Shown piece after piece: positions 1 through 36,932 of a stretch of 37,985 nucleotides of DNA. Both the position numbers and the translations under genes were made by a program. The stretch is from a virus (taxonomy: Duplodnaviria; Heunggongvirae; Uroviricota; Caudoviricetes), in IMG/VR virus record IMGVR_UViG_3300014614_000024, positions 1-37,985 of that record; one strand, given 5' to 3'. How positions within the stretch are numbered: the first letter of the stretch is position 1; every line of letters begins with the position of its first letter. The notes under the pieces were generated by a model, which saw only the letters and a program-made list of their open reading frames with translations, searched no databases and was not told the origin of the DNA.

Positions 1-258
1 ATGCAAACCGTTATTTTTGGTCGTCCGGGTTGCCCTTACTGTGTGCGTGCAAAAGATCTGGCTGAGAAATTGAGCAATGAACACGATGATTTTCAGTATC
101 ACTATGTAGATATTCGTGCGGAAGGGATCACTAAAGAAGATCTACAACAAAAGGCAGGTAAACCCGTAGAAACCGTGCCGCAGATTTTTGTCGATCAGCA
201 ACATATCGGCGGCTATACCGATTTTGCTGCATGGGTGAAAGAAAATCTGGACGCCTGA
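1..258 (+). CDS. grxA: glutaredoxin 1
   Basis: 85-aa product with CPYC redox motif; I recognise it as near-identical to E. coli GrxA; ATG start, TGA stop at 256-258. Confidence 0.93.
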   Translation: MQTVIFGRPGCPYCVRAKDLAEKLSNEHDDFQYHYVDIRAEGITKEDLQQKAGKPVETVPQIFVDQQHIGGYTDFAAWVKENLDA

Positions 259-267
259 TCGTCTGAC

Positions 268-300
268 AAGCCCTCGCGTTGAGGGCTTTACTGATTTTTT
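268..300 (+). terminator. hairpin (aagccctc/gagggctt) followed by T6 between convergent grxA and ybjM
   Basis: inverted repeat 268-275/281-288 with T-run 295-300, read directly from sequence; the T-run is 6 nt from the stem, so only a moderate intrinsic terminator. Confidence 0.4.
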
Positions 301-665
301 CTGTGCTGTGGTTTAAACAAACTACTGATAAATAAGAAACACAGTGCCCCCAGCGCACACCAGAACACCGCACTTAATAACCATGCCAGCTCTTGCCAGA
401 ATGAGCGCGTCGGTGAAAAAAACAGCCGCATAATGAGCATCGAACAGGGTGCCGCCAGCATTGCGCCAAACAGAGGTTTCAGGACTTCTCTACGCTGTGA
501 AAAGAAGCTGGCGACTGCTCCAGGAAGAATGAAAAATAGCAAGCCGATTTCAGGATGCCCGGCAGCCCGAAAAGCGCCTTTCATGTGCGTCGCCAGAAAA
601 AGGCACACCACAATGAAGAGGACAAAACAGCAGATTGCCCCCGCCCAACGTTGTTTATGTTTCAC
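288..665 (-). CDS. ybjM: inner-membrane protein YbjM
   Basis: 125-aa hydrophobic protein whose length and sequence match my recollection of E. coli YbjM; sits convergent to grxA as in K-12. Confidence 0.8.
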   Translation of the reverse strand: MKHKQRWAGAICCFVLFIVVCLFLATHMKGAFRAAGHPEIGLLFFILPGAVASFFSQRREVLKPLFGAMLAAPCSMLIMRLFFSPTRSFWQELAWLLSAVFWCALGALCFLFISSLFKPQHRKNQ

Positions 666-934
666 TCGTTCCTCCTGACACTGCGTCTATCGAACACATT
701 TTTCGCCAGTGTGGCGTTCAGTAAGATAAAGCCGCTTCGCATTCCATGCTAATATAGGCCAACGCAATTCATATAGCCGTTGATACCTAATGTGATTACA
801 CTAGTAAAATATATTGTTACTTTACTATCGTTTAGGTGCGCTGAATGAATCTGCGCCCTGAATTCTGGTAAAAAACATTATCGTAAATTACCATTTCTTT
901 CAACAGCTTACTAGTAAACAAGAAGTTAGCCTCC

Positions 935-2620
935 GTGAATATAAACGTCGCCGAATTGTTAAATGGGAATTACATTCTGTTATTATTTGTGGTCCTCGCG
1001 CTTGGGCTATGTCTCGGAAAGTTACGACTTGGTTCGATCCAACTGGGTAATTCCATTGGCGTTTTAGTCGTATCGCTGTTATTAGGCCAACAACATTTCA
1101 GCATTAACACCGATGCGCTTAATCTTGGCTTTATGCTGTTTATTTTCTGTGTTGGGGTTGAAGCCGGACCGAACTTTTTTTCCATTTTTTTTCGCGATGG
1201 GAAAAATTACCTAATGTTAGCACTGGTGATGGTTGGCAGTGCGCTGGTGATCGCCTTAGGGTTAGGTAAGCTGTTTGGCTGGGATATTGGCCTGACGGCC
1301 GGTATGTTAGCAGGCTCTATGACGTCGACACCGGTTCTGGTCGGTGCTGGCGATACACTGCGTCATTCCGGCATGGAAAGCAGGCAGCTCTCACTGGCAC
1401 TGGATAATCTGAGCCTCGGGTATGCCTTAACCTATTTAATCGGTCTGGTGAGTTTGATTGTTGGTGCGCGTTACTTGCCGAAATTGCAGCATCAGGACTT
1501 ACAGACCAGCGCCCAGCAAATCGCCCGCGAACGTGGCCTGGACACTGATGCCAACCGTAAGGTTTATTTACCGGTGATCCGCGCCTATCGCGTCGGCCCG
1601 GAGCTGGTGGCCTGGACCGACGGCAAAAATCTGCGTGAACTGGGTATTTATCGACAAACCGGCTGCTACATTGAACGTATTCGACGTAACGGGATTCTGG
1701 CAAATCCAGACGGTGATGCCGTGCTACAAATGGGCGATGAAATAGCGTTGGTAGGCTATCCCGACGCCCATGCCCGACTCGATCCCAGCTTCCGTAACGG
1801 TAAAGAAGTTTTCGATCGTGACCTTCTCGACATGCGTATCGTCACTGAAGAAGTGGTCGTTAAAAACCATAACGCTGTAGGTAAACGTCTCGCACAACTG
1901 AAGTTGACCGATCACGGTTGCTTCCTTAACCGCGTCATTCGTAGCCAGATTGAGATGCCGATAGATGACAACGTCGTGCTTAACAAAGGTGACGTTTTAC
2001 AAGTCAGCGGTGATGCCCGTCGCGTAAAAACCATCGCCGATCGCATCGGCTTTATCTCGATTCACAGCCAGGTCACTGACCTGCTGGCATTTTGCGCCTT
2101 CTTTGTTATTGGGCTGATGATCGGGATGATCACCTTCCAGTTCAGCACATTCAGTTTCGGCATGGGGAACGCTGCCGGGTTGTTATTCGCCGGAATTATG
2201 CTGGGCTTTATGCGTGCTAACCACCCGACCTTCGGTTACATTCCGCAGGGTGCATTAAGCATGGTGAAAGAGTTCGGCTTGATGGTGTTTATGGCAGGCG
2301 TTGGTCTGAGCGCCGGTAGCGGTATTAATAACGGCCTGGGCGCGATTGGCGGTCAGATGTTGATTGCCGGATTGATTGTCAGTCTGGTGCCCGTGGTTAT
2401 CTGTTTCTTGTTCGGTGCTTATGTATTGCGAATGAACCGCGCGCTGTTGTTCGGCGCAATGATGGGCGCACGTACCTGCGCGCCGGCAATGGAGATCATC
2501 AGTGATACAGCTCGCAGTAACATCCCGGCGCTGGGCTATGCGGGCACCTATGCAATCGCCAACGTCCTGCTGACGCTGGCAGGGACAATCATCGTCATGG
2601 TATGGCCAGGATTAGGATAA
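935..2620 (+). CDS. ybjL: putative AAE-family transporter YbjL (membrane domains plus central soluble region)
   Basis: 561-aa polytopic membrane protein with a central soluble region; same length and synteny as E. coli ybjL. Confidence 0.88.
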
Positions 2621-2732
2621 AACTGAAGTTGCCCTGAAAATGAAATTTTTTTGCACAACCGCAGAACTTTTCCGCAGGGCATCAGTCTTAATTAGTGCCA
2701 CTGCTTTTCTTTGATGTCCCCATTTTGTGGAG

Positions 2733-2855: not shown

Positions 2856-3074
2856 TCAAAGAGAGAGCGCCACCTGTCCTGATTTCATTGGATGCGGCTG
2901 AACCGGATTTGACTCTTTTGGCGTTGCAATCGAACGAACAAAAGTTTCATGGGTTACAAAAGTATGGCTGCAGTTAATATTCTGGCACTGGTTGTAACGC
3001 TCTTTGGTCAATGAAGATACCTGAAAACTGCTGCGAGTATGGGCGGCACTTCCACACAGTGGGCAAATCATCAT
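2856..3074 (-). CDS. ogr: Ogr/Delta-family zinc-finger late-gene activator (P2 Ogr / 186 B equivalent)
   Basis: 72 aa from the internal ATG at 3074; CPLCG-N19-CQNINC zinc-finger spacing like P2 Ogr; GGGGAG ~10 nt upstream; first gene inside the host junction, as ogr is in P2. Confidence 0.85.
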   Translation of the reverse strand: MMICPLCGSAAHTRSSFQVSSLTKERYNQCQNINCSHTFVTHETFVRSIATPKESNPVQPHPMKSGQVALSL

Positions 3075-3164
3075 TTTTCGAGTTCTCCCCATTTTTGCTA
3101 AATTCACAATAATGATACCGCATTATTCCATTTTGCAAACTTAAAAGTTCTCCATTGCGAAGAA

Positions 3165-22482: not shown

Positions 22483-23519
22483 TGGGAAAGAGTAAGAAGA
22501 ACCGCGCTGCGTCGACGAAACAGATCCAGCATAAAAGCCAGACTTCAGCCGAAGCATTCAGCTTCGGTGATCCCGTTCCTGTTCTGGACCGCCGCGAACT
22601 GCTGGACTATGTGGAATGCGTACAGATGGATCGTTGGTACGAGCCGCCTGTGAGTTTCGACGGACTGGCGCGAACCTTCCGCGCCGCCGTGCATCACAGC
22701 TCACCGATTGCAGTGAAGTGCAACATTCTGACCAGCACCTACATCCCTCACCCGCTGCTCAGCCAGCAGGCTTTTTCGCGTTTTGTACAGGACTATCTGG
22801 TTTTTGGTAACGCCTACCTGGAGAAACGCACGAACCGCTTCGGTGAAGTTATCGCCCTTGAGCCTGCACTGGCAAAATACACCCGACGCGGGTTAGACCT
22901 TGATACCTACTGGTTTGTGCAATACGGCATGACTACGCAGCCGTATCAGTTCACGAAAGGCAACATTTTTCATCTGATGGAACCGGACATCAACCAGGAG
23001 ATCTACGGCCTGCCTGGTTATCTTTCTGCCATTCCGTCAGCTCTGCTCAACGAGTCCGCCACGCTGTTCCGCCGCAAGTATTACATTAACGGCAGTCATG
23101 CAGGCTTCATCATGTACATGACCGATGCAGCGCAGAACCAGGAGGATGTGAACAACCTCCGCAATGCGATGAAAAGCGCCAAAGGTCCTGGTAACTTCCG
23201 TAACCTGTTTATGTACTCGCCTAACGGTAAAAAGGACGGGCTTCAGATTATCCCGTTGTCAGAAGTGGCGGCGAAGGATGAGTTCCTGAATATCAAGAAC
23301 GTGAGCCGGGACGACATGATGGCGGCGCATCGTGTGCCGCCACAAATGATGGGGATAATGCCTAATAATGTCGGGGGGTTTGGGGATGTGGAGAAGGCCA
23401 GCCGTGTATTCGTCCGAAATGAGCTAATGCCACTACAAAAGCGATTACAGGAGATGAATGATTGGCTTGGCAAGGAGGCGATACAGTTTAATACCTACTC
23501 GCTAGATATAGTCCCATAA
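22479..23519 (+). CDS. Q: portal protein Q
   Basis: 346 aa, P2 gpQ-like; 4-bp overlap with P. Confidence 0.9.
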   Translation: MMGKSKKNRAASTKQIQHKSQTSAEAFSFGDPVPVLDRRELLDYVECVQMDRWYEPPVSFDGLARTFRAAVHHSSPIAVKCNILTSTYIPHPLLSQQAFSRFVQDYLVFGNAYLEKRTNRFGEVIALEPALAKYTRRGLDLDTYWFVQYGMTTQPYQFTKGNIFHLMEPDINQEIYGLPGYLSAIPSALLNESATLFRRKYYINGSHAGFIMYMTDAAQNQEDVNNLRNAMKSAKGPGNFRNLFMYSPNGKKDGLQIIPLSEVAAKDEFLNIKNVSRDDMMAAHRVPPQMMGIMPNNVGGFGDVEKASRVFVRNELMPLQKRLQEMNDWLGKEAIQFNTYSLDIVP

Positions 23520-25867: not shown

Positions 25868-26830
25868 TTAACCTTCATAGTTCATGCCGCCAAGATACGA
25901 AGGTATCATCATTAATGATTTAACCCTTTCTTTTTCTTTTTCGGTGAGATGACGACATGCAAATGGGTAAATATTGATCAAAAATGTCTTGAGTTCGTCA
26001 AATGCCTCATCTGAATATAGGGTCCCAGATCTTAACTCATTCATTATTGTCATGACCCATTTTATAAACACAGTTGGCATCATTACATCAGCTATATCTT
26101 CCCAGCCATCAATAAGGCCATTGTTTGTTTGTTTTCTAACATACTGCCGGAGTGCTTGGTCGCAGTTGCCTCGACACGTCCAAAAAATATGTTCATTATA
26201 CTCTGGTTCTTTTTCGTAGTCGGTGCGGATTCTTTGCCATATAGTGATAATTCCCTTGTCGTCTTGAGACAGAAGCTCTTTCTTGCAAACTTTGCATTTT
26301 AAGCTAGGTTCATCGGAAAATATTCTTGCGGGTTTGGGGTTTTCTGTTTTCCACTCAGATAACGACTTTGGGAAGTACCTTTCGGCAATTTCCAATCCTC
26401 TGGAAGAGTGTAAAAGTTCCCTCTCTATTTTCTCTTTATCGAAAACCTGAAATTCAATTCGTCCTTTCAACCCGTCAAGTATTCCAGACAGACCTGCACT
26501 AGCAAGAGTTGAATAGAACCCGATAAATCCTTGGCAGTTATTCGCTATTACTCGATCAGTAATATTTGCATCATCTCCTGGATTAACTGAATTTCCACTA
26601 TGAGCTTTATGCTTACAGCTTACCAACCAACGGATAATTGTTTCCCCGCCGACACCAGTCCTTTTTTCTTCGGCTATAATATCAACCCCACCGTCAGCCC
26701 CTCTATCTGGGTCAGATATAATTTTATATCCCAGAAAAGCTAAGAAGTCGCGAGAAAAAAGTTCAAATGTGTCTTGCAGCCCTGTTGCTTTATGAGCCTC
26801 TGGTATTTCTTTGAAGTCTAATACTGGCAT
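25868..26830 (-). CDS. Mrr-cat-like PD-(D/E)xK nuclease domain fused to a Cys-rich (CxxC...CxxxC) C-terminal domain; cargo
   Basis: 320 aa; N-terminal GADGGVDIIAEE...LVSCKHK resembles the restriction-endonuclease (Mrr catalytic) core; C-terminal CKVCKK...CRGNC; AT-rich; own divergent promoter region. Confidence 0.5.
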   Translation of the reverse strand: MPVLDFKEIPEAHKATGLQDTFELFSRDFLAFLGYKIISDPDRGADGGVDIIAEEKRTGVGGETIIRWLVSCKHKAHSGNSVNPGDDANITDRVIANNCQGFIGFYSTLASAGLSGILDGLKGRIEFQVFDKEKIERELLHSSRGLEIAERYFPKSLSEWKTENPKPARIFSDEPSLKCKVCKKELLSQDDKGIITIWQRIRTDYEKEPEYNEHIFWTCRGNCDQALRQYVRKQTNNGLIDGWEDIADVMMPTVFIKWVMTIMNELRSGTLYSDEAFDELKTFLINIYPFACRHLTEKEKERVKSLMMIPSYLGGMNYEG

Positions 26831-32877: not shown

Positions 32878-33219
32878 TTAATTCGGCATGGTTAGCCGTC
32901 TGGGAAATAAGCTCACCACTGCACGAAAATGATTCATTGCTTTAATCAGCTCCCGCTTTTCGTCAGTGGTCAGCTCATTAATGCTGATGCTATGACGTTC
33001 AGCCGGAATTTTTGCCATAAAGAATATAGCAGCCAGTGCCCGTTTATTTTGTTCATTATTGATATCCCGTGGATCACGCATATCTTTAATAAACCGCTCA
33101 AGCTCTGACTCAATATTCAGGCCAAAAACTTTCGCCCTTAATTCCGCTATGTGATTAAGTCCACTCAGGCGTTCACCGGGGCTTAATGGAACAGTCGCCG
33201 CAGCGCCTTCAATAGCCAT
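32878..33219 (-). CDS. hypothetical early-operon protein
   Basis: 113-aa ORF in the early operon; no family recognised. Confidence 0.4.
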   Translation of the reverse strand: MAIEGAAATVPLSPGERLSGLNHIAELRAKVFGLNIESELERFIKDMRDPRDINNEQNKRALAAIFFMAKIPAERHSISINELTTDEKRELIKAMNHFRAVVSLFPRRLTMPN

Positions 33220-33383
33220 TTGTTCCCCCTTTTTTTCGTAGATAGTTCTGCCAGCAATTCATCTTGTGAACGGCACGGATGCCAGCGTTTACCATCCTCC
33301 CCCATGATCCAGCCGTGACCGTAGTGCATTGCCGGACTTTGTTTTACCAGCAGCGATGCAAATGATGGTTCTTTAGTAAGCAT
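33183..33383 (-). CDS. hypothetical small early protein
   Basis: 66 aa from internal ATG 33383, just downstream of the cII stop; coding status uncertain. Confidence 0.3.
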   Translation of the reverse strand: MLTKEPSFASLLVKQSPAMHYGHGWIMGEDGKRWHPCRSQDELLAELSTKKRGNKWLLKALRRLFH

Positions 33384-33390
33384 AAGCACC

Positions 33391-33900
33391 TCACAGCAAA
33401 CCGAATGAAGCACCGAGGCCAGTCACGGTATCAACTGCACTCGCCATCGCAGGATTAGCCTGTAAACGGGCCTGCAATGAAACAGCCGCCAGCGCCATCA
33501 GTCGTGTTACAGAGTTAATGCTGCTGATAGCATCACGACGACCTGCACTGGTTTTTACATCGCCAGATACCGCACCTGCAGCAACACGCCCGATCTCTGC
33601 GGTTGCACTCATGACGTAATGTGGCAGTTTCTCTTTTGCCACCTCATTAATCGGTACGCATGGCAGGCAGTGAATCTGAGCCAGAAAACCATCTACCAGC
33701 GTTGAATCTTCAGTCAGATCGGTAAGCAGCCAGATTTCTGGTGCGGTTAATAAATGAGGTTGAGCCGGGTTCAGCTTGTTCCGCAGAATCTGCACATTCA
33801 TGCCAGCACGTTCTGCCAGTTGCACCAGGTTGTGGCGCAGCGCGAATGCACGACAGGCTTCATCAAAATGTGGATGTTTGGAAACTTGGTAATCAAACAT
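33391..33900 (-). CDS. cII: CII-like lysogeny-establishment transcription activator (phage 186 type)
   Basis: 169 aa from internal ATG 33900; [24 protein letters not shown]...[28 protein letters not shown] is near-identical to 186 CII as I recall it. Confidence 0.8.
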
Positions 33901-33932
33901 AGTCGACACCCCTGATGTATCCCAAAATGGAA

Positions 33933-34154
33933 CTAGTTGAATACAACATTGCAATCAGTAAGTGCATCAACGGTAAGAGCAGCAAGGTTGATCATTACCT
34001 TTTCTCTTTTCTTGTCTTTCCGAAGGCGATGACGAGGGATGCGACCATCAGCCAGCATATCGTTGATTGTGTCGATAGAAAGACCAGTAAGTTCGCTATA
34101 ACGCTCAATTGTGACGTGCGGCGTATTCAGAGTTATTGAAATGTTAGGGGTCAT
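33933..34154 (-). CDS. apl: Apl/Cox-like excisionase and early-promoter repressor
   Basis: 73 aa from ATG 34154 with AGGAG 10 nt upstream; HTH segment [25 protein letters not shown]; first gene of the early operon, divergent from cI. Confidence 0.7.
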
Positions 34155-34220
34155 GATGCAACATCTCCTATTGGCTTGTGGTGAGCCGGTATTAATCGTG
34201 ACGAAAACTTCACAAAACGG

Positions 34221-34249
34221 AGAATAGGTTCGCATAAAGAATATGTCAA
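34221..34249 (-). promoter_or_regulatory. candidate early lytic promoter pR (TTGACA-17-TATTCT)
   Basis: -35 TTGACA at 34249-34244 overlaps the cI start codon; -10 TATTCT at 34226-34221; transcribes toward apl. Confidence 0.45.
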
Positions 34250-35184
34250 CTAATAAAATCACATTTCGCCATATTGAAGATCATCTGAAAGCCATGGTCA
34301 TGCAGAATCGAGGAGGGCAAAAAGTCATTGAGAGAATACTCATGGCCTATGGTTTCAAATCACGCCAAGCATTCTGTAACCACCTTGGTATTTCACAAAG
34401 TACAATGGCTAACAGATATGCACGCGATACCTTCCCTGCTGATTGGGTTGTTATATGTTCAATGGAAACTGGCGCATCAATCGAATGGTTAGCATTTGGT
34501 TTAGATGCTGAAGAAGGAGTGCCAGCTCCTTCGCCAGAACGGCATGCTGAAAAACAGTCTGCAGATGAATTTTGCAATGAAGTTCACACCCCCACGATAA
34601 AGTTCGATAATGAAAACCACATGGATTTCACTCGAGGGGGTAAAGCAGCAATAGAGCGAATTGTTAAGGCTTACGGTTACAAAACGCGCCAAGCCTTAGC
34701 CGATCACCTTGGTATCTCAAAAAGCACATTAGCTACACGATACATGCGAGACATTTTTCCGGCAGACTGGATCATCCAATGCTGTTTAGAAACAGGAGTG
34801 TCTCTCGAGTGGTTATCTTTTGGTAAGGGGCATTCCAATCAAACAAAGCTAAGTGGGTTGCTTACATTAGACTGCTATGATCTACGTGACGGCAAACTTA
34901 CTGATCAAAGAGAATTAATCGTTTCGAGCGAAATTTTACCTCAAAATTTAAAACATCCCTATATAGTTAATTCCGCAAATGATTCATATATCATTAGCAA
35001 AGAGGAGTATCTTAGCGATGGTCTATGGTTAGTATCTATTAACGGAGAATTTACTTTTAGAGACATATTTAAACTTCCAAACAATCGCATCCGCGTTGAA
35101 AACACAAAATATAGCTTTGAATGCGATAAAGAAGATTTGGAATTTAATAATAAAGTTAAAGGAATAATTAGAAAAAGGGTTTAA
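34243..35184 (+). CDS. cI: CI-like immunity repressor (186 type) with duplicated N-terminal DNA-binding domain
   Basis: 313 aa; residues ~24-90 and ~132-198 are paralogous (GGQKVIERILMAYGFKSRQAF.NHLGISQSTMANRYARDTFPADW... versus GGKAAIERIVKAYGYKTRQALADHLGISKSTLATRYMRDIFPADW...), both like the 186 CI N-terminal domain; C-terminus (SDGLWLV...FKLP...FEC) like the 186 CI oligomerisation domain. Confidence 0.7.
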   Translation: MSTNKITFRHIEDHLKAMVMQNRGGQKVIERILMAYGFKSRQAFCNHLGISQSTMANRYARDTFPADWVVICSMETGASIEWLAFGLDAEEGVPAPSPERHAEKQSADEFCNEVHTPTIKFDNENHMDFTRGGKAAIERIVKAYGYKTRQALADHLGISKSTLATRYMRDIFPADWIIQCCLETGVSLEWLSFGKGHSNQTKLSGLLTLDCYDLRDGKLTDQRELIVSSEILPQNLKHPYIVNSANDSYIISKEEYLSDGLWLVSINGEFTFRDIFKLPNNRIRVENTKYSFECDKEDLEFNNKVKGIIRKRV

Positions 35185-35186
35185 CA

Positions 35187-36236
35187 ATGAGCTTTACGAA
35201 AACTATTGAATTTGCAAACTATACCTTAAATTTTGGAGAGGACAAAGTTCTCTTAGATGCTTTTGATTGCATTGTTTTTCCTTCATTTTTCGCACAAAAA
35301 TACGTTAGAAAATTTAAAGATACAGAATATTTCTTTACTGACACAAAAATTATTACGTTAGATACTACAGATTCAGATTTTATTGGTCCTATAGTTCCAA
35401 CAATTGCATTGTGTGGCCGCATTATAAAAAAGACCATATTTAAACGAGATCAAATATTTCAAGATGGTCAATTAATTCGAGATCACAGGACGCTAGAAAG
35501 TCACCCCAGCTCTATTTTTATTCTTATGCTTAATGAGCACAGATTAATGCTTTGCAAAGAGGTTTCTGGAGCCCCTACCCTAGAAGAATTTGAAAATACT
35601 AGCAAGTATTGCCTTGCACAGCGATATAATTCTTTTGTGGATTACGAAGTAAAAAAAAATAAAAGAATTAGAAAGAAAAAATCATACATTGATCGACTGT
35701 ATAAAAAAGATATTTATCGTAAACTAGGAGCCCCCAAATTACGGGTTACCCCCTTAACAGACCCAAGATCATTGAGCAATTTTGTTGAACTCTTTTCTGT
35801 TGTTAATAGATTATCAATTGAGTTATTGCCAACAAATAGTGAAAATATATCTCTTGATGGCTTCTGGAGGAAAATTGAACAAGAAAAAGAAGAACTTAAT
35901 AGTAGTAAAGCTCAATTAGTATACACAAATAAAAATGAAGATGGTTTAAATTCTGAGGCCGTCATTCAAAAAACAACAAGTGCAACCCGAATGGCCAACT
36001 CTAAAGTAATTATAAGTGGTAAAGATGAACACGGAGCAAGGCTATCAGGGAATAATGATAGTTTTACTCTAAAAGCATCAAGGCCACAACTTAGTTCTGA
36101 TTTGGAAAGAGCTGCTCAAGAGGCGTATTCTGCATTCACAGAATTAAAGGATGCAGGAAATATTATTATTCCAGAACGTGAAGATTATACTAAAATTTTT
36201 TCCAAGTTAACATCAATAATTTCTAGGTGGCTATAG
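35187..36236 (+). CDS. hypothetical soluble protein (cargo; first gene of a Rex-like pair)
   Basis: 349 aa, very AT-rich and Lys/Asn-rich; starts 3 nt after the cI stop; no family recognised. Confidence 0.5.
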   Translation: MSFTKTIEFANYTLNFGEDKVLLDAFDCIVFPSFFAQKYVRKFKDTEYFFTDTKIITLDTTDSDFIGPIVPTIALCGRIIKKTIFKRDQIFQDGQLIRDHRTLESHPSSIFILMLNEHRLMLCKEVSGAPTLEEFENTSKYCLAQRYNSFVDYEVKKNKRIRKKKSYIDRLYKKDIYRKLGAPKLRVTPLTDPRSLSNFVELFSVVNRLSIELLPTNSENISLDGFWRKIEQEKEELNSSKAQLVYTNKNEDGLNSEAVIQKTTSATRMANSKVIISGKDEHGARLSGNNDSFTLKASRPQLSSDLERAAQEAYSAFTELKDAGNIIIPEREDYTKIFSKLTSIISRWL

Positions 36237-36237
36237 T

Positions 36238-36843
36238 ATGAAATATACATTCAACCCAGAAGATCTGACCAAAGAGCGATCTTTGCATGATGTTTACAAA
36301 TTAACTAAAAAAATAAAGGTCAATTCATTTGACTTTTATTTCACATTATTATTAGTGATATTATTATCTATTAATGCTTTTTGTCTATCTTCATCACCAG
36401 AGTTAATTTCATCTATTAGACAATGGACACCTTTAGTATTCGGATTCACTACAACAACATTAGGTTTTTTAATTACTGGATTTACAATATTTGCAACCAT
36501 AAATAAACCTGAACTTTTCCTTTCATTAATGGAGTATAAGCATCCATTATACGGGATAAGTTACTTAAAATATGTTTATGGCGTATTTATGAGAGTATTT
36601 ATATATTTCATATTTTGGTCTGTTATCTATCTTTTAGTCCTTCTTTTCGGGCAAGAAAATGGATTGGCTACAAAATTACTCAGAGCCTTAATGTTTTCTC
36701 ATTGCACTAAAGTTGTTGGAGTTCAAATACTATATATACTCGTAGGAAGCAGTGCAGTGTTCCTTGTATTAACTTTAAAAACTTTCCTGTTCAATATTTA
36801 TGCTATGTTAATGCAATCTCTACGCTGGGAAGTAGAAAGATAA
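36238..36843 (+). CDS. hypothetical polytopic membrane protein (cargo; second gene of a Rex-like pair)
   Basis: 201 aa with four long hydrophobic segments; ATG 2 nt after the upstream stop; AGGTGG upstream. Confidence 0.55.
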   Translation: MKYTFNPEDLTKERSLHDVYKLTKKIKVNSFDFYFTLLLVILLSINAFCLSSSPELISSIRQWTPLVFGFTTTTLGFLITGFTIFATINKPELFLSLMEYKHPLYGISYLKYVYGVFMRVFIYFIFWSVIYLLVLLFGQENGLATKLLRALMFSHCTKVVGVQILYILVGSSAVFLVLTLKTFLFNIYAMLMQSLRWEVER

Positions 36844-36932
36844 AATTAACCTCAATGTATGAATCTCAATTCATATACATTGACACTGGTTATACATACA
36901 GTAAAAATGCTCTCCACTGGAGGGCATTTTTT

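What the first reader, a model, noticed from the sequence alone, without database searches (positions are those of the whole stretch)
34154..34249. Compact 88-bp lysis/lysogeny switch; candidate pR -35 overlaps the repressor start codon
The apl and cI start codons are only 88 bp apart. A near-consensus TTGACA-17-TATTCT promoter reads toward apl, and its -35 hexamer overlaps the cI ATG. This geometry is expected for 186-type face-to-face pR/pL promoters with convergent transcription. I could not find a convincing lysogenic promoter for cI by eye, consistent with an intrinsically weak or activator-dependent pL.
Basis: partly seen in the sequence, partly recalled or inferred. Interest (0 to 1): 0.4.

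Follow-up and report, generated by a model that had tools for sequence, protein, structure and literature searches.

The report
P2/186-type prophage lysis–lysogeny switch
This is the ordinary on/off control region of a P2/186-family prophage, built like the textbook phages 186 and P2; the only unusual part is its repressor, which carries two DNA-binding heads instead of one.

Summary
TTGACA-17-TATTCT sits on the minus strand at 34249..34221, and its -35 shares TG with the cI ATG.

The interpretation also holds, but the feature is not special. Phage P2's annotated Pe -35 overlaps the C start codon in the same ATGTCAA word. Nine of 80 species-level 186-type loci do the same.

It aligns without gaps to the mapped 186 pL (TTGCGA-17-CATGAT). 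The same architecture recurs in 38 of 80 loci. Predicted start sites are about 43 bp apart and face to face (186: 62 bp). The CII site of the separate establishment promoter pE is also conserved.

Candidate operators are direct repeats WTCACAWWWCGG at 34209 (O1), 34229 (O2, weak) and 34258 (O3). They fall at +1, in the spacer and upstream of the -35.

A recombination junction at about 34203 puts pL in a shared apl module. It puts pR, the operators and cI in the immunity module.

The twist is that CI (313 aa) has two Phage_CI_repr domains joined by a disordered 41-residue linker. About 50 protein clusters share this architecture, as does phage PsP3.

No transcription start or binding site was tested experimentally.

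The parts
33933..34154 (-). apl/cox-like gene (73 aa), first gene of the early lytic operon
   Evidence: ORF with an AGGAG Shine-Dalgarno sequence. PHROG 575 'Cox-like excisionase and repressor', E 9.6e-32, full length. Weak match to the 186 Apl HTH region. PGAP calls the same CDS.
34243..35184 (+). cI repressor gene, 313 aa: HTH1 (res 25-85), disordered linker (89-129), HTH2 (133-193), 186-type C-terminal domain (206-310)
   Evidence: Pfam Phage_CI_repr x2 plus Phage_CI_C. Residues 137-308 are 33% identical to full-length 186 CI. The two HTH copies are 64% identical. PDB 2FJR, E 1.8e-28. AF2 model shows linker pLDDT below 50.
34221..34249 (-). pR candidate (early lytic promoter): -35 TTGACA at 34249..34244, 17-bp spacer, -10 TATTCT at 34226..34221, predicted +1 near 34213
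   Evidence: Promoter scan. Shuffle test. Invariant in 8 diverged loci. 66 of the 70 loci with any promoter hit in an 80-species survey (10 had none) place a TTGAC[AG]-like promoter reading away from cI at this position. Same ATGTCAA overlap as P2 Pe/C. The start site is inferred, not measured.
34136..34164 (+). pL candidate (lysogenic promoter): -35 TTGAAA at 34136-34141 inside apl codons 5-7, -10 CAACAT at 34159-34164 between the apl SD and ATG, predicted +1 at A34170
   Evidence: Gapless positional alignment to the annotated 186 pL, TTGCGA-17-CATGAT. The architecture TTGWWA-10-CAT(apl start)-4-CANNAT is present in 38 of 80 species loci. In those loci A2, A5 and T6 of the -10 are kept and positions 3-4 vary.
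34209..34221 (+). O1, candidate CI operator repeat TTCACAAAACGGA, covering pR +1 up to the last base (34221) of the -10
   Evidence: Second-best hit in the whole window for a PWM built only from four other loci, score 16.6. Exact TCACAWWWCG occurs only twice in the window, both times here. Conserved in 8 loci.
34229..34241 (+). O2, weaker repeat TTCGCATAAAGAA in the pR spacer, 20 bp from O1
   Evidence: Good consensus match in L002 and L089 (scores 15-16) but only 8.8 in the window. A homologous spacer sequence also occurs in heteroimmune L003-type loci, so this assignment is the least secure.
34258..34270 (+). O3, repeat ATCACATTTCGCC upstream of the pR -35, inside cI codons 6-10
   Evidence: Best PWM hit in the window, score 18.1. 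ACATTTCGCCAT is invariant in 7 loci, including all synonymous positions. In L088, where a tandem cI is not next to a pR, the sequence has degenerated to TTAAAATTTAGCC.
34193..34202 (+). TAATCGTGAC, a conserved element at the edge of the shared apl module; the mosaic junction lies just after it (about 34203)
   Evidence: Window and heteroimmune L003 are about 95% identical up to 34202 and unrelated beyond. The element is present with different cI alleles, so it is not a CI-allele-specific operator. Its role is unknown.
34171..34189 (.). inverted repeat TTGGCTT-GTGGT-GAGCCGG, at the 5' end of the predicted pL transcript and just upstream of the apl SD in the pR transcript
   Evidence: Fold of the leader. 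82% of cells paired over 17 loci, with 6 double-change cells (2 of 500 shuffles reach this). Evidence is modest.
33872..33899 (+). CII-binding site of the establishment promoter pE (GGATGTTTGG...AATCAAACA), reading toward cI
   Evidence: 25 of 28 positions identical to the annotated 186 CII site at pE, at the same apl/cII junction. The CII protein matches Pfam Phage_CP76, E 3e-42.
33391..33900 (-). cII gene (169 aa)
   Evidence: Pfam PF06892, E 3.2e-42.

Best explanation
The 88-bp gap is the immunity switch of a P2/186-family (Peduoviridae) prophage.

A strong early promoter, pR (TTGACA-17-TATTCT, +1 near 34213), fires leftward into apl-cII-fil and the replication genes. A weak lysogenic promoter, pL (TTGAAA-17-CAACAT, +1 near 34170), fires rightward into cI, two cargo genes and int. 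pL has its -35 inside apl and its -10 between the apl ribosome-binding site and ATG. The two promoters face each other with start sites about 43 bp apart.

As in 186 and P2, active pR should suppress pL by transcriptional interference, and CI should both shut off the lytic operon and relieve that interference. CI would do this by binding direct repeats WTCACAWWWCGG placed at +1/-10 (O1), in the spacer (O2, weak in this phage) and just upstream of the -35 inside its own coding sequence (O3).

Lysogeny is established from a separate CII-activated promoter, pE, at the apl/cII junction. The Cox-like Apl presumably binds the shared sequence between the promoters.

pL and the apl side belong to a module shared by heteroimmune phages. 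pR, its operators and cI form the exchangeable immunity module, with the junction at about 34203.

Shown here: gene identities, sequence matches, conservation patterns and the mosaic junction. Inferred: start sites, promoter strengths, CI and Apl binding, and interference.
For: Family identity. CI, CII, Fil and the Cox-like RDF are in 186 order. The window is 99.3% identical to Klebsiella phage 4LV2017 (Peduoviridae).

pR. It is the only promoter hit in the region, with 3.3% chance expectation. It is invariant in 8 diverged loci against a variable background. 80 species-level loci were surveyed, and 70 gave a promoter hit. In 66 of those 70 the best hit was a TTGAC[AG]-like promoter at the cI 5' end reading away from cI. 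In 36 loci its -35 touches an in-frame start codon, and 9 loci have an in-frame ATGTCAA. P2 shows the same overlap.

pL. It aligns without gaps to the annotated 186 pL. The same architecture occurs in 38 of 80 loci, with -10 variation confined to positions 3-4.

Separation. About 43 bp lies within the 40-60 bp stated for P2-like phages (PMC7498355). 186 is 62 bp.

Operators. The two best hits in the window for a PWM trained on other loci are O3 and O1. The repeats segregate with the cI allele and not with the apl module. O3 has decayed in L088, where there is no pR. Single-HTH CIs with an HTH1-like recognition helix (L082) carry the same repeats. O1 and O2 are direct repeats spanning the -10, two turns apart, as in P2 (PMC2995052). 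The three sites at about -51, -21 and -1 compare with the three 186 operators spaced two turns apart at pR (PMC3675496).

pE. The CII site is conserved in 25 of 28 positions.
Against: No transcription start, footprint or reporter data exist for this phage.

pL has a poor -10 (3/6). Its -35 lies in coding sequence. Many of the loci that carry it share a recently exchanged apl module, so they are not independent.

O2 in this phage departs from the repeat consensus (score 8.8), and a similar spacer occurs in heteroimmune loci.

The O2-O3 spacing is 29 bp, not two turns.

No distal FL/FR-like sites were found, so 186-style looping control of pL may not apply.

No Apl boxes could be defined.

The target of the second HTH domain is unknown.
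Confidence: 0.8

Rival explanations
1. In lysogens cI is made from a divergent promoter that overlaps pR and yields a leaderless or near-leaderless mRNA starting at the ATG, like lambda pRM. It would not come from a face-to-face pL.
For: The plus strand has TTCACA(34209-14)-18-CATAAA(34233-38), whose start would fall at 34243-34245 (read). The cI ATG has no Shine-Dalgarno sequence.
Against: The -10 lacks the key final T and is not conserved (CACAAA in L002). 186 cI and P2 C also lack a Shine-Dalgarno sequence yet are expressed from long-leader pL/Pc transcripts. The positional orthologue of the mapped 186 pL is present and conserved.
Confidence: 0.07
2. The true cI start is the downstream ATG (codon 18 or 20, MQNRGG...). 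The -35 would then lie in a 5' UTR and the gap would be about 145 bp.
For: RefSeq annotates that start in three related E. coli prophages, L089-L091.
Against: Codon 20 is ATA, CTG or TTG in 3 of 7 loci. The upstream ATG is invariant. The 19-codon extension is open in all loci, with conservative substitutions only in frame 0. PGAP uses the upstream start in the identical genome and in L087 and L002.
Confidence: 0.05
3. The TCACAWWWCGG repeats are not CI operators. They would be promoter-flanking sequence kept by common descent, or sites for another factor, and CI would bind elsewhere.
For: All tandem-CI loci compared are related. O2-like sequence also occurs in L003-type spacers. The TGTGAA next to the late-activator promoter pB is identical in phages with different cI alleles. 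No binding data exist.
Against: The repeats lie on the cI side of the mosaic junction and are replaced by a different palindrome (GTACCCAATTGGGTAC) in the heteroimmune L003 with the same apl module. They are kept in loci down to 49% CI identity while neighbouring bases vary. O3 decays when cI is uncoupled from pR. They are the top two PWM hits in 76 kb of sequence scanned.
Confidence: 0.15
4. The TTGACA-17-TATTCT match is a chance consensus hit, and the early operon is driven from elsewhere.
For: Eight matches of equal quality occur in the window. The chance of one in about 109 bp is 3.3%.
Against: Both hexamers are invariant across diverged loci. The same position and orientation recur in most of 80 species loci. 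The arrangement is identical to the annotated P2 Pe.
Confidence: 0.03

Closest known systems
Coliphage 186 pR-pL switch (cI / apl-cII, with pE and CI flanking sites FL/FR)
   Same: The protein families match: CI with Phage_CI_repr plus Phage_CI_C, CII, Fil, and an RDF as the first lytic gene. The promoters are convergent. pL has its -35 inside apl and its -10 between the apl SD and ATG, in identical register. A CII site for pE sits at the apl/cII junction. Three repressor sites lie around pR, upstream of the -35, in the spacer and at +1.
   Different: The gap is 88 bp rather than 129 bp. The start sites are about 43 bp apart rather than 62 bp. In 186 the pR -35 is 14 bp from the cI ATG, whereas here it overlaps. 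186 operators are inverted repeats, whereas here they are direct repeats. No FL/FR-like distal sites were detected. Apl is only weakly similar. CI has a second HTH domain.
Coliphage P2 Pe-Pc switch (C / cox)
   Same: The identical word ATGTCAA makes the early-promoter -35 (TTGACA) overlap the repressor start codon. Operator half-sites are direct repeats that span the -10, two helical turns apart. The promoters are face to face. The repressor gene has no Shine-Dalgarno sequence.
   Different: P2 C is an unrelated 99-aa protein. P2 has no CII or pE. Pc lies wholly in the intergenic region. The gap is 114 bp.
Salmonella phage PsP3 cI (286 aa)
   Same: It also has two Phage_CI_repr domains plus one Phage_CI_C.
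   Different: It is about 31% identical. Its lytic-side partner (gp30, Cro/CI-like) and its promoter (TTTACA-17-TATAGT, about 40 bp from the ATG) differ. TCACA direct repeats were not seen. The literature described the protein as having a 'longer C-terminal domain' (PMC3448106).
Lambda OR (pRM/pR)
   Same: The logic is a bistable repressor/lytic-operon switch with a CII-dependent establishment promoter.
   Different: Lambda promoters are back to back and divergent, the repressor activates its own promoter by contact, and the proteins are unrelated.

Membership tests
186-type (CI-family) Peduoviridae lysis-lysogeny switch | Immunity repressor of the 186 CI family (N-terminal Phage_CI_repr HTH plus Phage_CI_C oligomerisation domain) | tested here: met
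   Pfam E 2.5e-57 and 1.3e-19. 33% identity over full-length 186 CI. PDB 2FJR and 2FKD. An extra HTH copy is present.
186-type (CI-family) Peduoviridae lysis-lysogeny switch | RDF/repressor (Apl/Cox) as the first gene of the lytic operon, divergent from cI, followed by cII and fil | tested here: met
   PHROG 575, E 9.6e-32. CII PF06892 and Fil PF10893. Gene order.
186-type (CI-family) Peduoviridae lysis-lysogeny switch | Strong lytic promoter next to cI, reading toward apl | tested here: met
   Sequence and conservation only. No start-site data.
186-type (CI-family) Peduoviridae lysis-lysogeny switch | Weak lysogenic promoter face to face with pR, start sites 40-60 bp apart | tested here: met
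   Positional orthologue of the annotated 186 pL. Present in 38 of 80 loci. Predicted separation about 43 bp. This is inference from sequence.
186-type (CI-family) Peduoviridae lysis-lysogeny switch | CII-activated establishment promoter pE at the apl/cII junction | tested here: met
   CII site identical in 25 of 28 positions to the annotated 186 site. The -10 of pE was not securely identified.
186-type (CI-family) Peduoviridae lysis-lysogeny switch | Three CI operators at pR spaced two helical turns apart (inverted repeats in 186) | tested here: inconclusive
   Three repeats at about -1, -21 and -51. O1-O2 spacing is 20 bp but O2-O3 is 29 bp. The repeats are direct, not inverted, and O2 is weak.
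186-type (CI-family) Peduoviridae lysis-lysogeny switch | Distal CI sites (FL, FR) about 300 bp either side of pR | tested here: not met
   The PWM scan found no conserved distal site. The best distal hit, at 33143, is coding conservation also present in heteroimmune L003.
186-type (CI-family) Peduoviridae lysis-lysogeny switch | Array of Apl/Cox boxes (direct repeats, 10-11 bp spacing) between the promoters and at att | tested here: inconclusive
   No k-mer shared between the switch and the att arm with helical periodicity. Only 43 bp is available.
186-type (CI-family) Peduoviridae lysis-lysogeny switch | Transcriptional interference of pR on pL, relieved by CI | not testable with these tools
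   Needs reporter assays.
P2 C-type switch | Repressor of the P2 C family (about 99 aa) | tested here: not met
   The repressor is of the 186 CI family.
P2 C-type switch | Early promoter -35 overlapping the repressor start codon; direct-repeat half-sites spanning the -10, two turns apart | tested here: met
   P2 annotation and sequence (PMC2995052), compared with window ATGTCAA and O1/O2 20 bp apart.

The most novel reading that the evidence does not exclude
The repressor is a natural two-headed CI. An HTH1 module reads the TCACAWWWCGG direct repeats at pR. A 41-residue disordered tether joins it to the front of what was once a complete 187-aa single-HTH CI; M127 aligns with the start codon of L008-type CIs. 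HTH2 has a different recognition helix (SKSTLATRY against SQSTMANRY) and no identified target in the switch. If both heads are functional, one repressor would combine two operator codes. That could mean dual immunity, or bridging of pR to other sites. It would also change the stoichiometry of the 186-type 14-mer wheel to 28 DNA-binding domains, giving a variant of the 186 switch that uses P2-style direct-repeat operators.
Probability: 0.3. Interest if true: 0.55.

Novelty: new member of a known kind. Interest (0 to 1): 0.27.

Why it matters
The switch itself adds little. It shows that the -35/start-codon overlap and the compact spacing are a common, inherited design of P2/186-family phages and not a curiosity.

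Three by-products are useful.
1. A sequence rule locates pL in this family: TTGWWA-10-CAT(apl start)-4-CANNAT.
2. The recombination junction between the immunity module and the lytic module is mapped to the roughly 40 bp between the two start sites.
3. A sizeable and apparently unstudied subfamily of 186-type repressors carries duplicated DNA-binding domains. It includes the long-known phage PsP3. This subfamily gives a natural test of how domain duplication rewires operator geometry.

Tried and rejected
1. Inverted half-site. TAATCGTGAC (34193-202) was first read as an inverted CI half-site. It was rejected because heteroimmune L003 and L017 carry it too, and it lies on the shared side of the mosaic junction.

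2. CI site at the late-activator promoter pB. This was suggested by analogy with 186: the window has TATCAT-T-ATTGTGAA near 3100. It gives no support, because the region is identical in phages with three different cI alleles.

3. Distal operator at 33143 (PWM score 14.7). This is coding conservation in the DUF5347 gene and is also present in L003.

4. PWM hit at 34655 inside HTH2 codons. It is not conserved in the L002 type.

5. Internal promoter TTCACA-17-GATAAT (34583-34611), which could give a short 187-aa CI from ATG 34621. It is not conserved: L087 has GTT in place of ATG, and the L002 type lacks the hexamers.

6. Apl boxes shared between the switch and the att arm. None were found.

7. 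L003- or L008-type operator words as targets for HTH2 near the switch. None were found.

8. Rfam families and leader RNA structure. Nothing was significant. RNAalifold gave no consensus for the 34171-34189 hairpin, and manual pair counting gave only modest covariation.

9. A genome-contig scan with the tandem-CI alignment. It returned mostly single-HTH CIs. These were useful for the geometry survey but added only two more tandem loci.

Full report
**What the window is.** The right-hand part of the window is a P2/186-family prophage. The region 33880-35200 is 99.3% identical to Klebsiella phage 4LV2017 (Peduoviridae, Elveevirus). The region 34100-35184 is 100% identical to the E. coli 98193 chromosome.

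Genes, from left to right:

| Gene | Coordinates | Strand | Evidence |
|---|---|---|---|
| fil | 33183..33413 ORF | - | Pfam Phage_186_Fil |
| cII | 33900..33391 | - | PF06892, E 3e-42 |
| Cox-like excisionase/repressor (apl) | 34154..33933 | - | PHROG 575, E 1e-31 |
| cI | 34243..35184 | + | see below |
| two unannotatable low-GC ORFs | 35187-36843 | + | no family hits |
| int | from 36933 | + | Pfam Int_N (PF24624) and Phage_integrase (PF00589) |

PGAP calls the same apl and cI starts in the identical E. coli genome.

**Checking the observation.** The two start codons are 88 bp apart. The only sigma-70-like site in 33800-34600 is TTGACA-17-TATTCT on the minus strand (34249..34221). TGTCAA (34244-49) overlaps ATG (34243-45).

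By chance a match of at least 10/12 turns up in 3.3% of shuffled 109-bp stretches, and the window holds eight such matches. So the match alone is only suggestive.

Conservation settles it. In eight tandem-CI switch regions (CI identity down to 49%), ATGTCAAC and CGGAGAATAGG are invariant while the flanking bases vary.

I also tested whether the upstream ATG is the true start, because RefSeq uses an ATG 57 nt downstream in three relatives.
- The upstream ATG is invariant.
- The downstream one is ATA, CTG or TTG in 3 of 7 loci.
- The 19 intervening codons show conservative replacements and no stops only in frame 0.

**Is the overlap unusual?** No. The annotated P2 record places the Pe -35 at 25884-25889 and the C start codon at 25888-25890. 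The sequence is ccATGTCAAAC, the same ATGTCAA word as here.

I surveyed 80 loci with a 186-type CI, each from a different species. Nine have an in-frame ATGTCAA. In 36 the best predicted pR -35 touches an in-frame start codon. Seventy of the 80 gave a promoter hit at the cI 5' end, and in 66 of those the best hit is TTGAC[AG]-like, mostly with a 17-bp spacer, reading away from cI.

In 186 itself the -35 (23026-31) is 14 bp from the cI ATG (23011), and the gap is 129 bp. So the overlap is a P2-like trait and a common one. It is not a 186 trait.

**The missing lysogenic promoter.** The 186 record annotates pL as TTGCGA (23159..23154) -17- CATGAT (23136..23131). Its -35 is inside apl and its -10 lies between the apl Shine-Dalgarno sequence and the ATG.

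With the apl start codons as anchor, the window aligns to this without a gap:

```
186    TTGCGA-TTTCAGAAGCCATATTG-CATGAT-TCCCTATTAGCC
window TTGAAA-TGTTAGGGGTCATGATG-CAACAT-CTCCTATTGGCT
```

. Both score 8/12.

The architecture TTGWWA-10-CAT(apl start)-4-CANNAT is found in 38 of the 80 species loci. The -10 variants are CAACAT (22), CAGTAT (6), CAAAAT (3), CAATAT (3), CACTAT (2), CAAGAT (1) and CAGTAC (1). Positions 2, 5 and 6 are kept and positions 3-4 are free, which is the pattern expected of a -10 element in a stretch with no coding constraint.

Taking +1 as in 186 (six bases after the -10) gives A34170. pR +1 is expected near 34213. The start sites are then about 43 bp apart and face to face. 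This is within the 40-60 bp range given for P2-like phages (PMC7498355). 186 is 62 bp apart.

Independently of this, because the pR -35 sits on the cI ATG, any leader-containing promoter for cI must lie inside the pR transcription unit. Convergence is therefore forced by the geometry.

**Establishment promoter.** The annotated 186 CII site at pE (GGATGTTTGGAAACCTGAAAATCAAACA) is matched in 25 of 28 positions at 33872-33899, at the same apl/cII junction. The activator-dependent route to cI is therefore pE, a promoter distinct from pL, as in 186 (PMC7708051).

**Operators.** Three direct repeats of WTCACAWWWCGG stand out when the six tandem-CI switches are aligned:
- O1 at 34209-21, covering pR +1 up to the last base of the -10.
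- O2 at 34229-41, in the spacer, 20 bp from O1.
- O3 at 34258-70, upstream of the -35 in cI codons 6-10, 29 bp from O2.

Evidence that they are CI operators:
- A PWM built only from four other loci ranks O3 (18.1) and O1 (16.6) first and second in the whole 38-kb window on both strands. O2 scores only 8.8 in this phage.
- Exact TCACAWWWCG occurs twice in the window, both times here.
- The repeats follow the cI allele. L003 shares the apl module at about 95% identity up to 34202, then diverges completely. It carries the palindrome GTACCCAATTGGGTAC at the O1 position instead.
- A natural control supports O3. In L088 a tandem cI sits behind another cI, away from any pR. It keeps ATGTCAAC, but O3 has decayed to TTAAAATTTAGCC and O1, O2 and the -10 are absent.
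- Single-HTH CIs whose recognition helix resembles HTH1 (L082) carry the same direct repeats.

Direct repeats spanning the -10, two turns apart, is the P2 C operator layout (PMC2995052). Three sites upstream of the -35, in the spacer and at +1 is the 186 layout (PMC3675496). This switch combines the two.

**Modularity.** The junction at about 34203 lies between the two predicted start sites. pL, the element TAATCGTGAC (34193-202) and the inverted repeat at 34171-89 travel with apl and cII. pR, O1-O3 and cI travel together as the immunity cassette.

**The repressor.** CI is 313 aa.
- Residues 137-308 align to full-length 186 CI at 33% identity.
- An extra N-terminal HTH (residues 23-86) is 64% identical to the second HTH.
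- Pfam finds two Phage_CI_repr domains and one Phage_CI_C.
- An AlphaFold2 model from 37 homologues gives two confident five-helix domains (25-85 and 133-193), a linker with pLDDT below 50 (89-129) and a beta-rich C-terminal domain. pTM is 0.37, so there is no fixed arrangement between domains.
- M127 (MDFTRGGKAA) aligns with the start of L008-type single-HTH CIs ((M/L/V)DFNSGGKK). The protein therefore looks like an HTH1 module fused in front of a complete CI.

About 50 protein clusters of 290-330 aa share this architecture across Enterobacteriaceae. So do the CIs of PsP3 and SI22. A 2011 comparative paper described the PsP3 protein as having a 'longer C-terminal domain' (PMC3448106). I found nothing on the tandem architecture in the paper library. 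What HTH2 binds is unknown.

**What did not work out.**
- No FL/FR-like distal CI sites were found.
- No allele-specific CI site was found at the late-activator promoter.
- No Apl boxes were found.
- No known RNA family or unusual leader structure was found.
- The inverted repeat at 34171-34189 shows only modest covariation.

**Verdict.** The part worth experiments is the two-headed CI and how it uses direct-repeat operators. All start sites and binding events remain inferences from sequence and homology.

Noticed in passing
window 34243-35184: CI carries two Phage_CI_repr HTH domains (64% identical to each other) joined by a 41-residue linker predicted to be disordered. About 50 protein clusters share this architecture, as do the CIs of PsP3 and SI22. 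The literature called the PsP3 protein 'longer C-terminal domain'.
   Followed up: partly
window 34583-34623: Inside the cI linker the plus strand reads TTCACA-17-GATAAT. Nine nt downstream is ATG 34621 (M127), which aligns with the start of single-HTH CIs. This could be a relic of an ancestral switch or an internal promoter for a short CI. It is not conserved: L087 has GTT at the ATG, and the L002 type lacks the hexamers.
   Followed up: partly
L088 881-2424 (E. coli AF44 prophage): Two cI genes lie in tandem: a single-HTH CI (189 aa) followed 50 bp later by a tandem-HTH CI (307 aa). The second keeps ATGTCAAC but has lost the pR -10 and the operators.
   Followed up: partly
window 35187-36843: Two ORFs (349 aa, and 201 aa that looks hydrophobic by eye) lie between cI and int at about 30% GC, against about 46-52% in the flanks. 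They have no Pfam, NCBIfam or PADLOC hit. Relatives carry different cargo in the same slot (KAP NTPase, DUF4041, DUF2511). It looks like a variable cargo or defence slot.
   Followed up: partly
window 36880-36908: A plus-strand TTGACA-17-AAAAAT match (10/12) lies about 25 bp upstream of the int start (36933). It may be an int-proximal promoter.
   Followed up: no
window 34171-34189: Inverted repeat TTGGCTT-GTGGT-GAGCCGG lies at the predicted 5' end of the pL transcript, next to the apl SD. Some relatives show compensatory changes (CGCT/AGCG, AGCT/AGCT, GGTT/AACC). 82% of cells are paired over 17 loci, and 2 of 500 shuffles reach the observed number of double changes.
   Followed up: partly
window 34107-34116 and 34194-34203: AATTGTGACG and AATCGTGACG are direct repeats 87 bp apart, one inside apl and one in the shared part of the switch. 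Both belong to the apl module and are kept in heteroimmune phages. Their role is unknown; they may be Apl-related.
   Followed up: no
L089, L090, L091 (E. coli RefSeq prophages): RefSeq starts cI 57 nt downstream of the conserved ATGTCAAC. Comparative evidence says the upstream ATG is the start, so these annotations are probably truncated. L090 cI is also frameshifted.
   Followed up: yes
window 1-2700 and L099 7087-7200: The left end of the window is host DNA: a glutaredoxin-like ORF and a 561-aa transporter-like ORF. The Ogr/B homologue of the prophage is at 2856-3107 (-). In E. coli 98193 the int end abuts rcdA. The att arm next to int carries two CTAACTTATTGTTTT repeats 21 bp apart, which are probably Int arm sites.
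   Followed up: no
window 34900-35184: GC content drops to about 30% inside the cI C-terminal domain, before the cargo ORFs begin. This suggests a second mosaic junction within cI.
   Followed up: no
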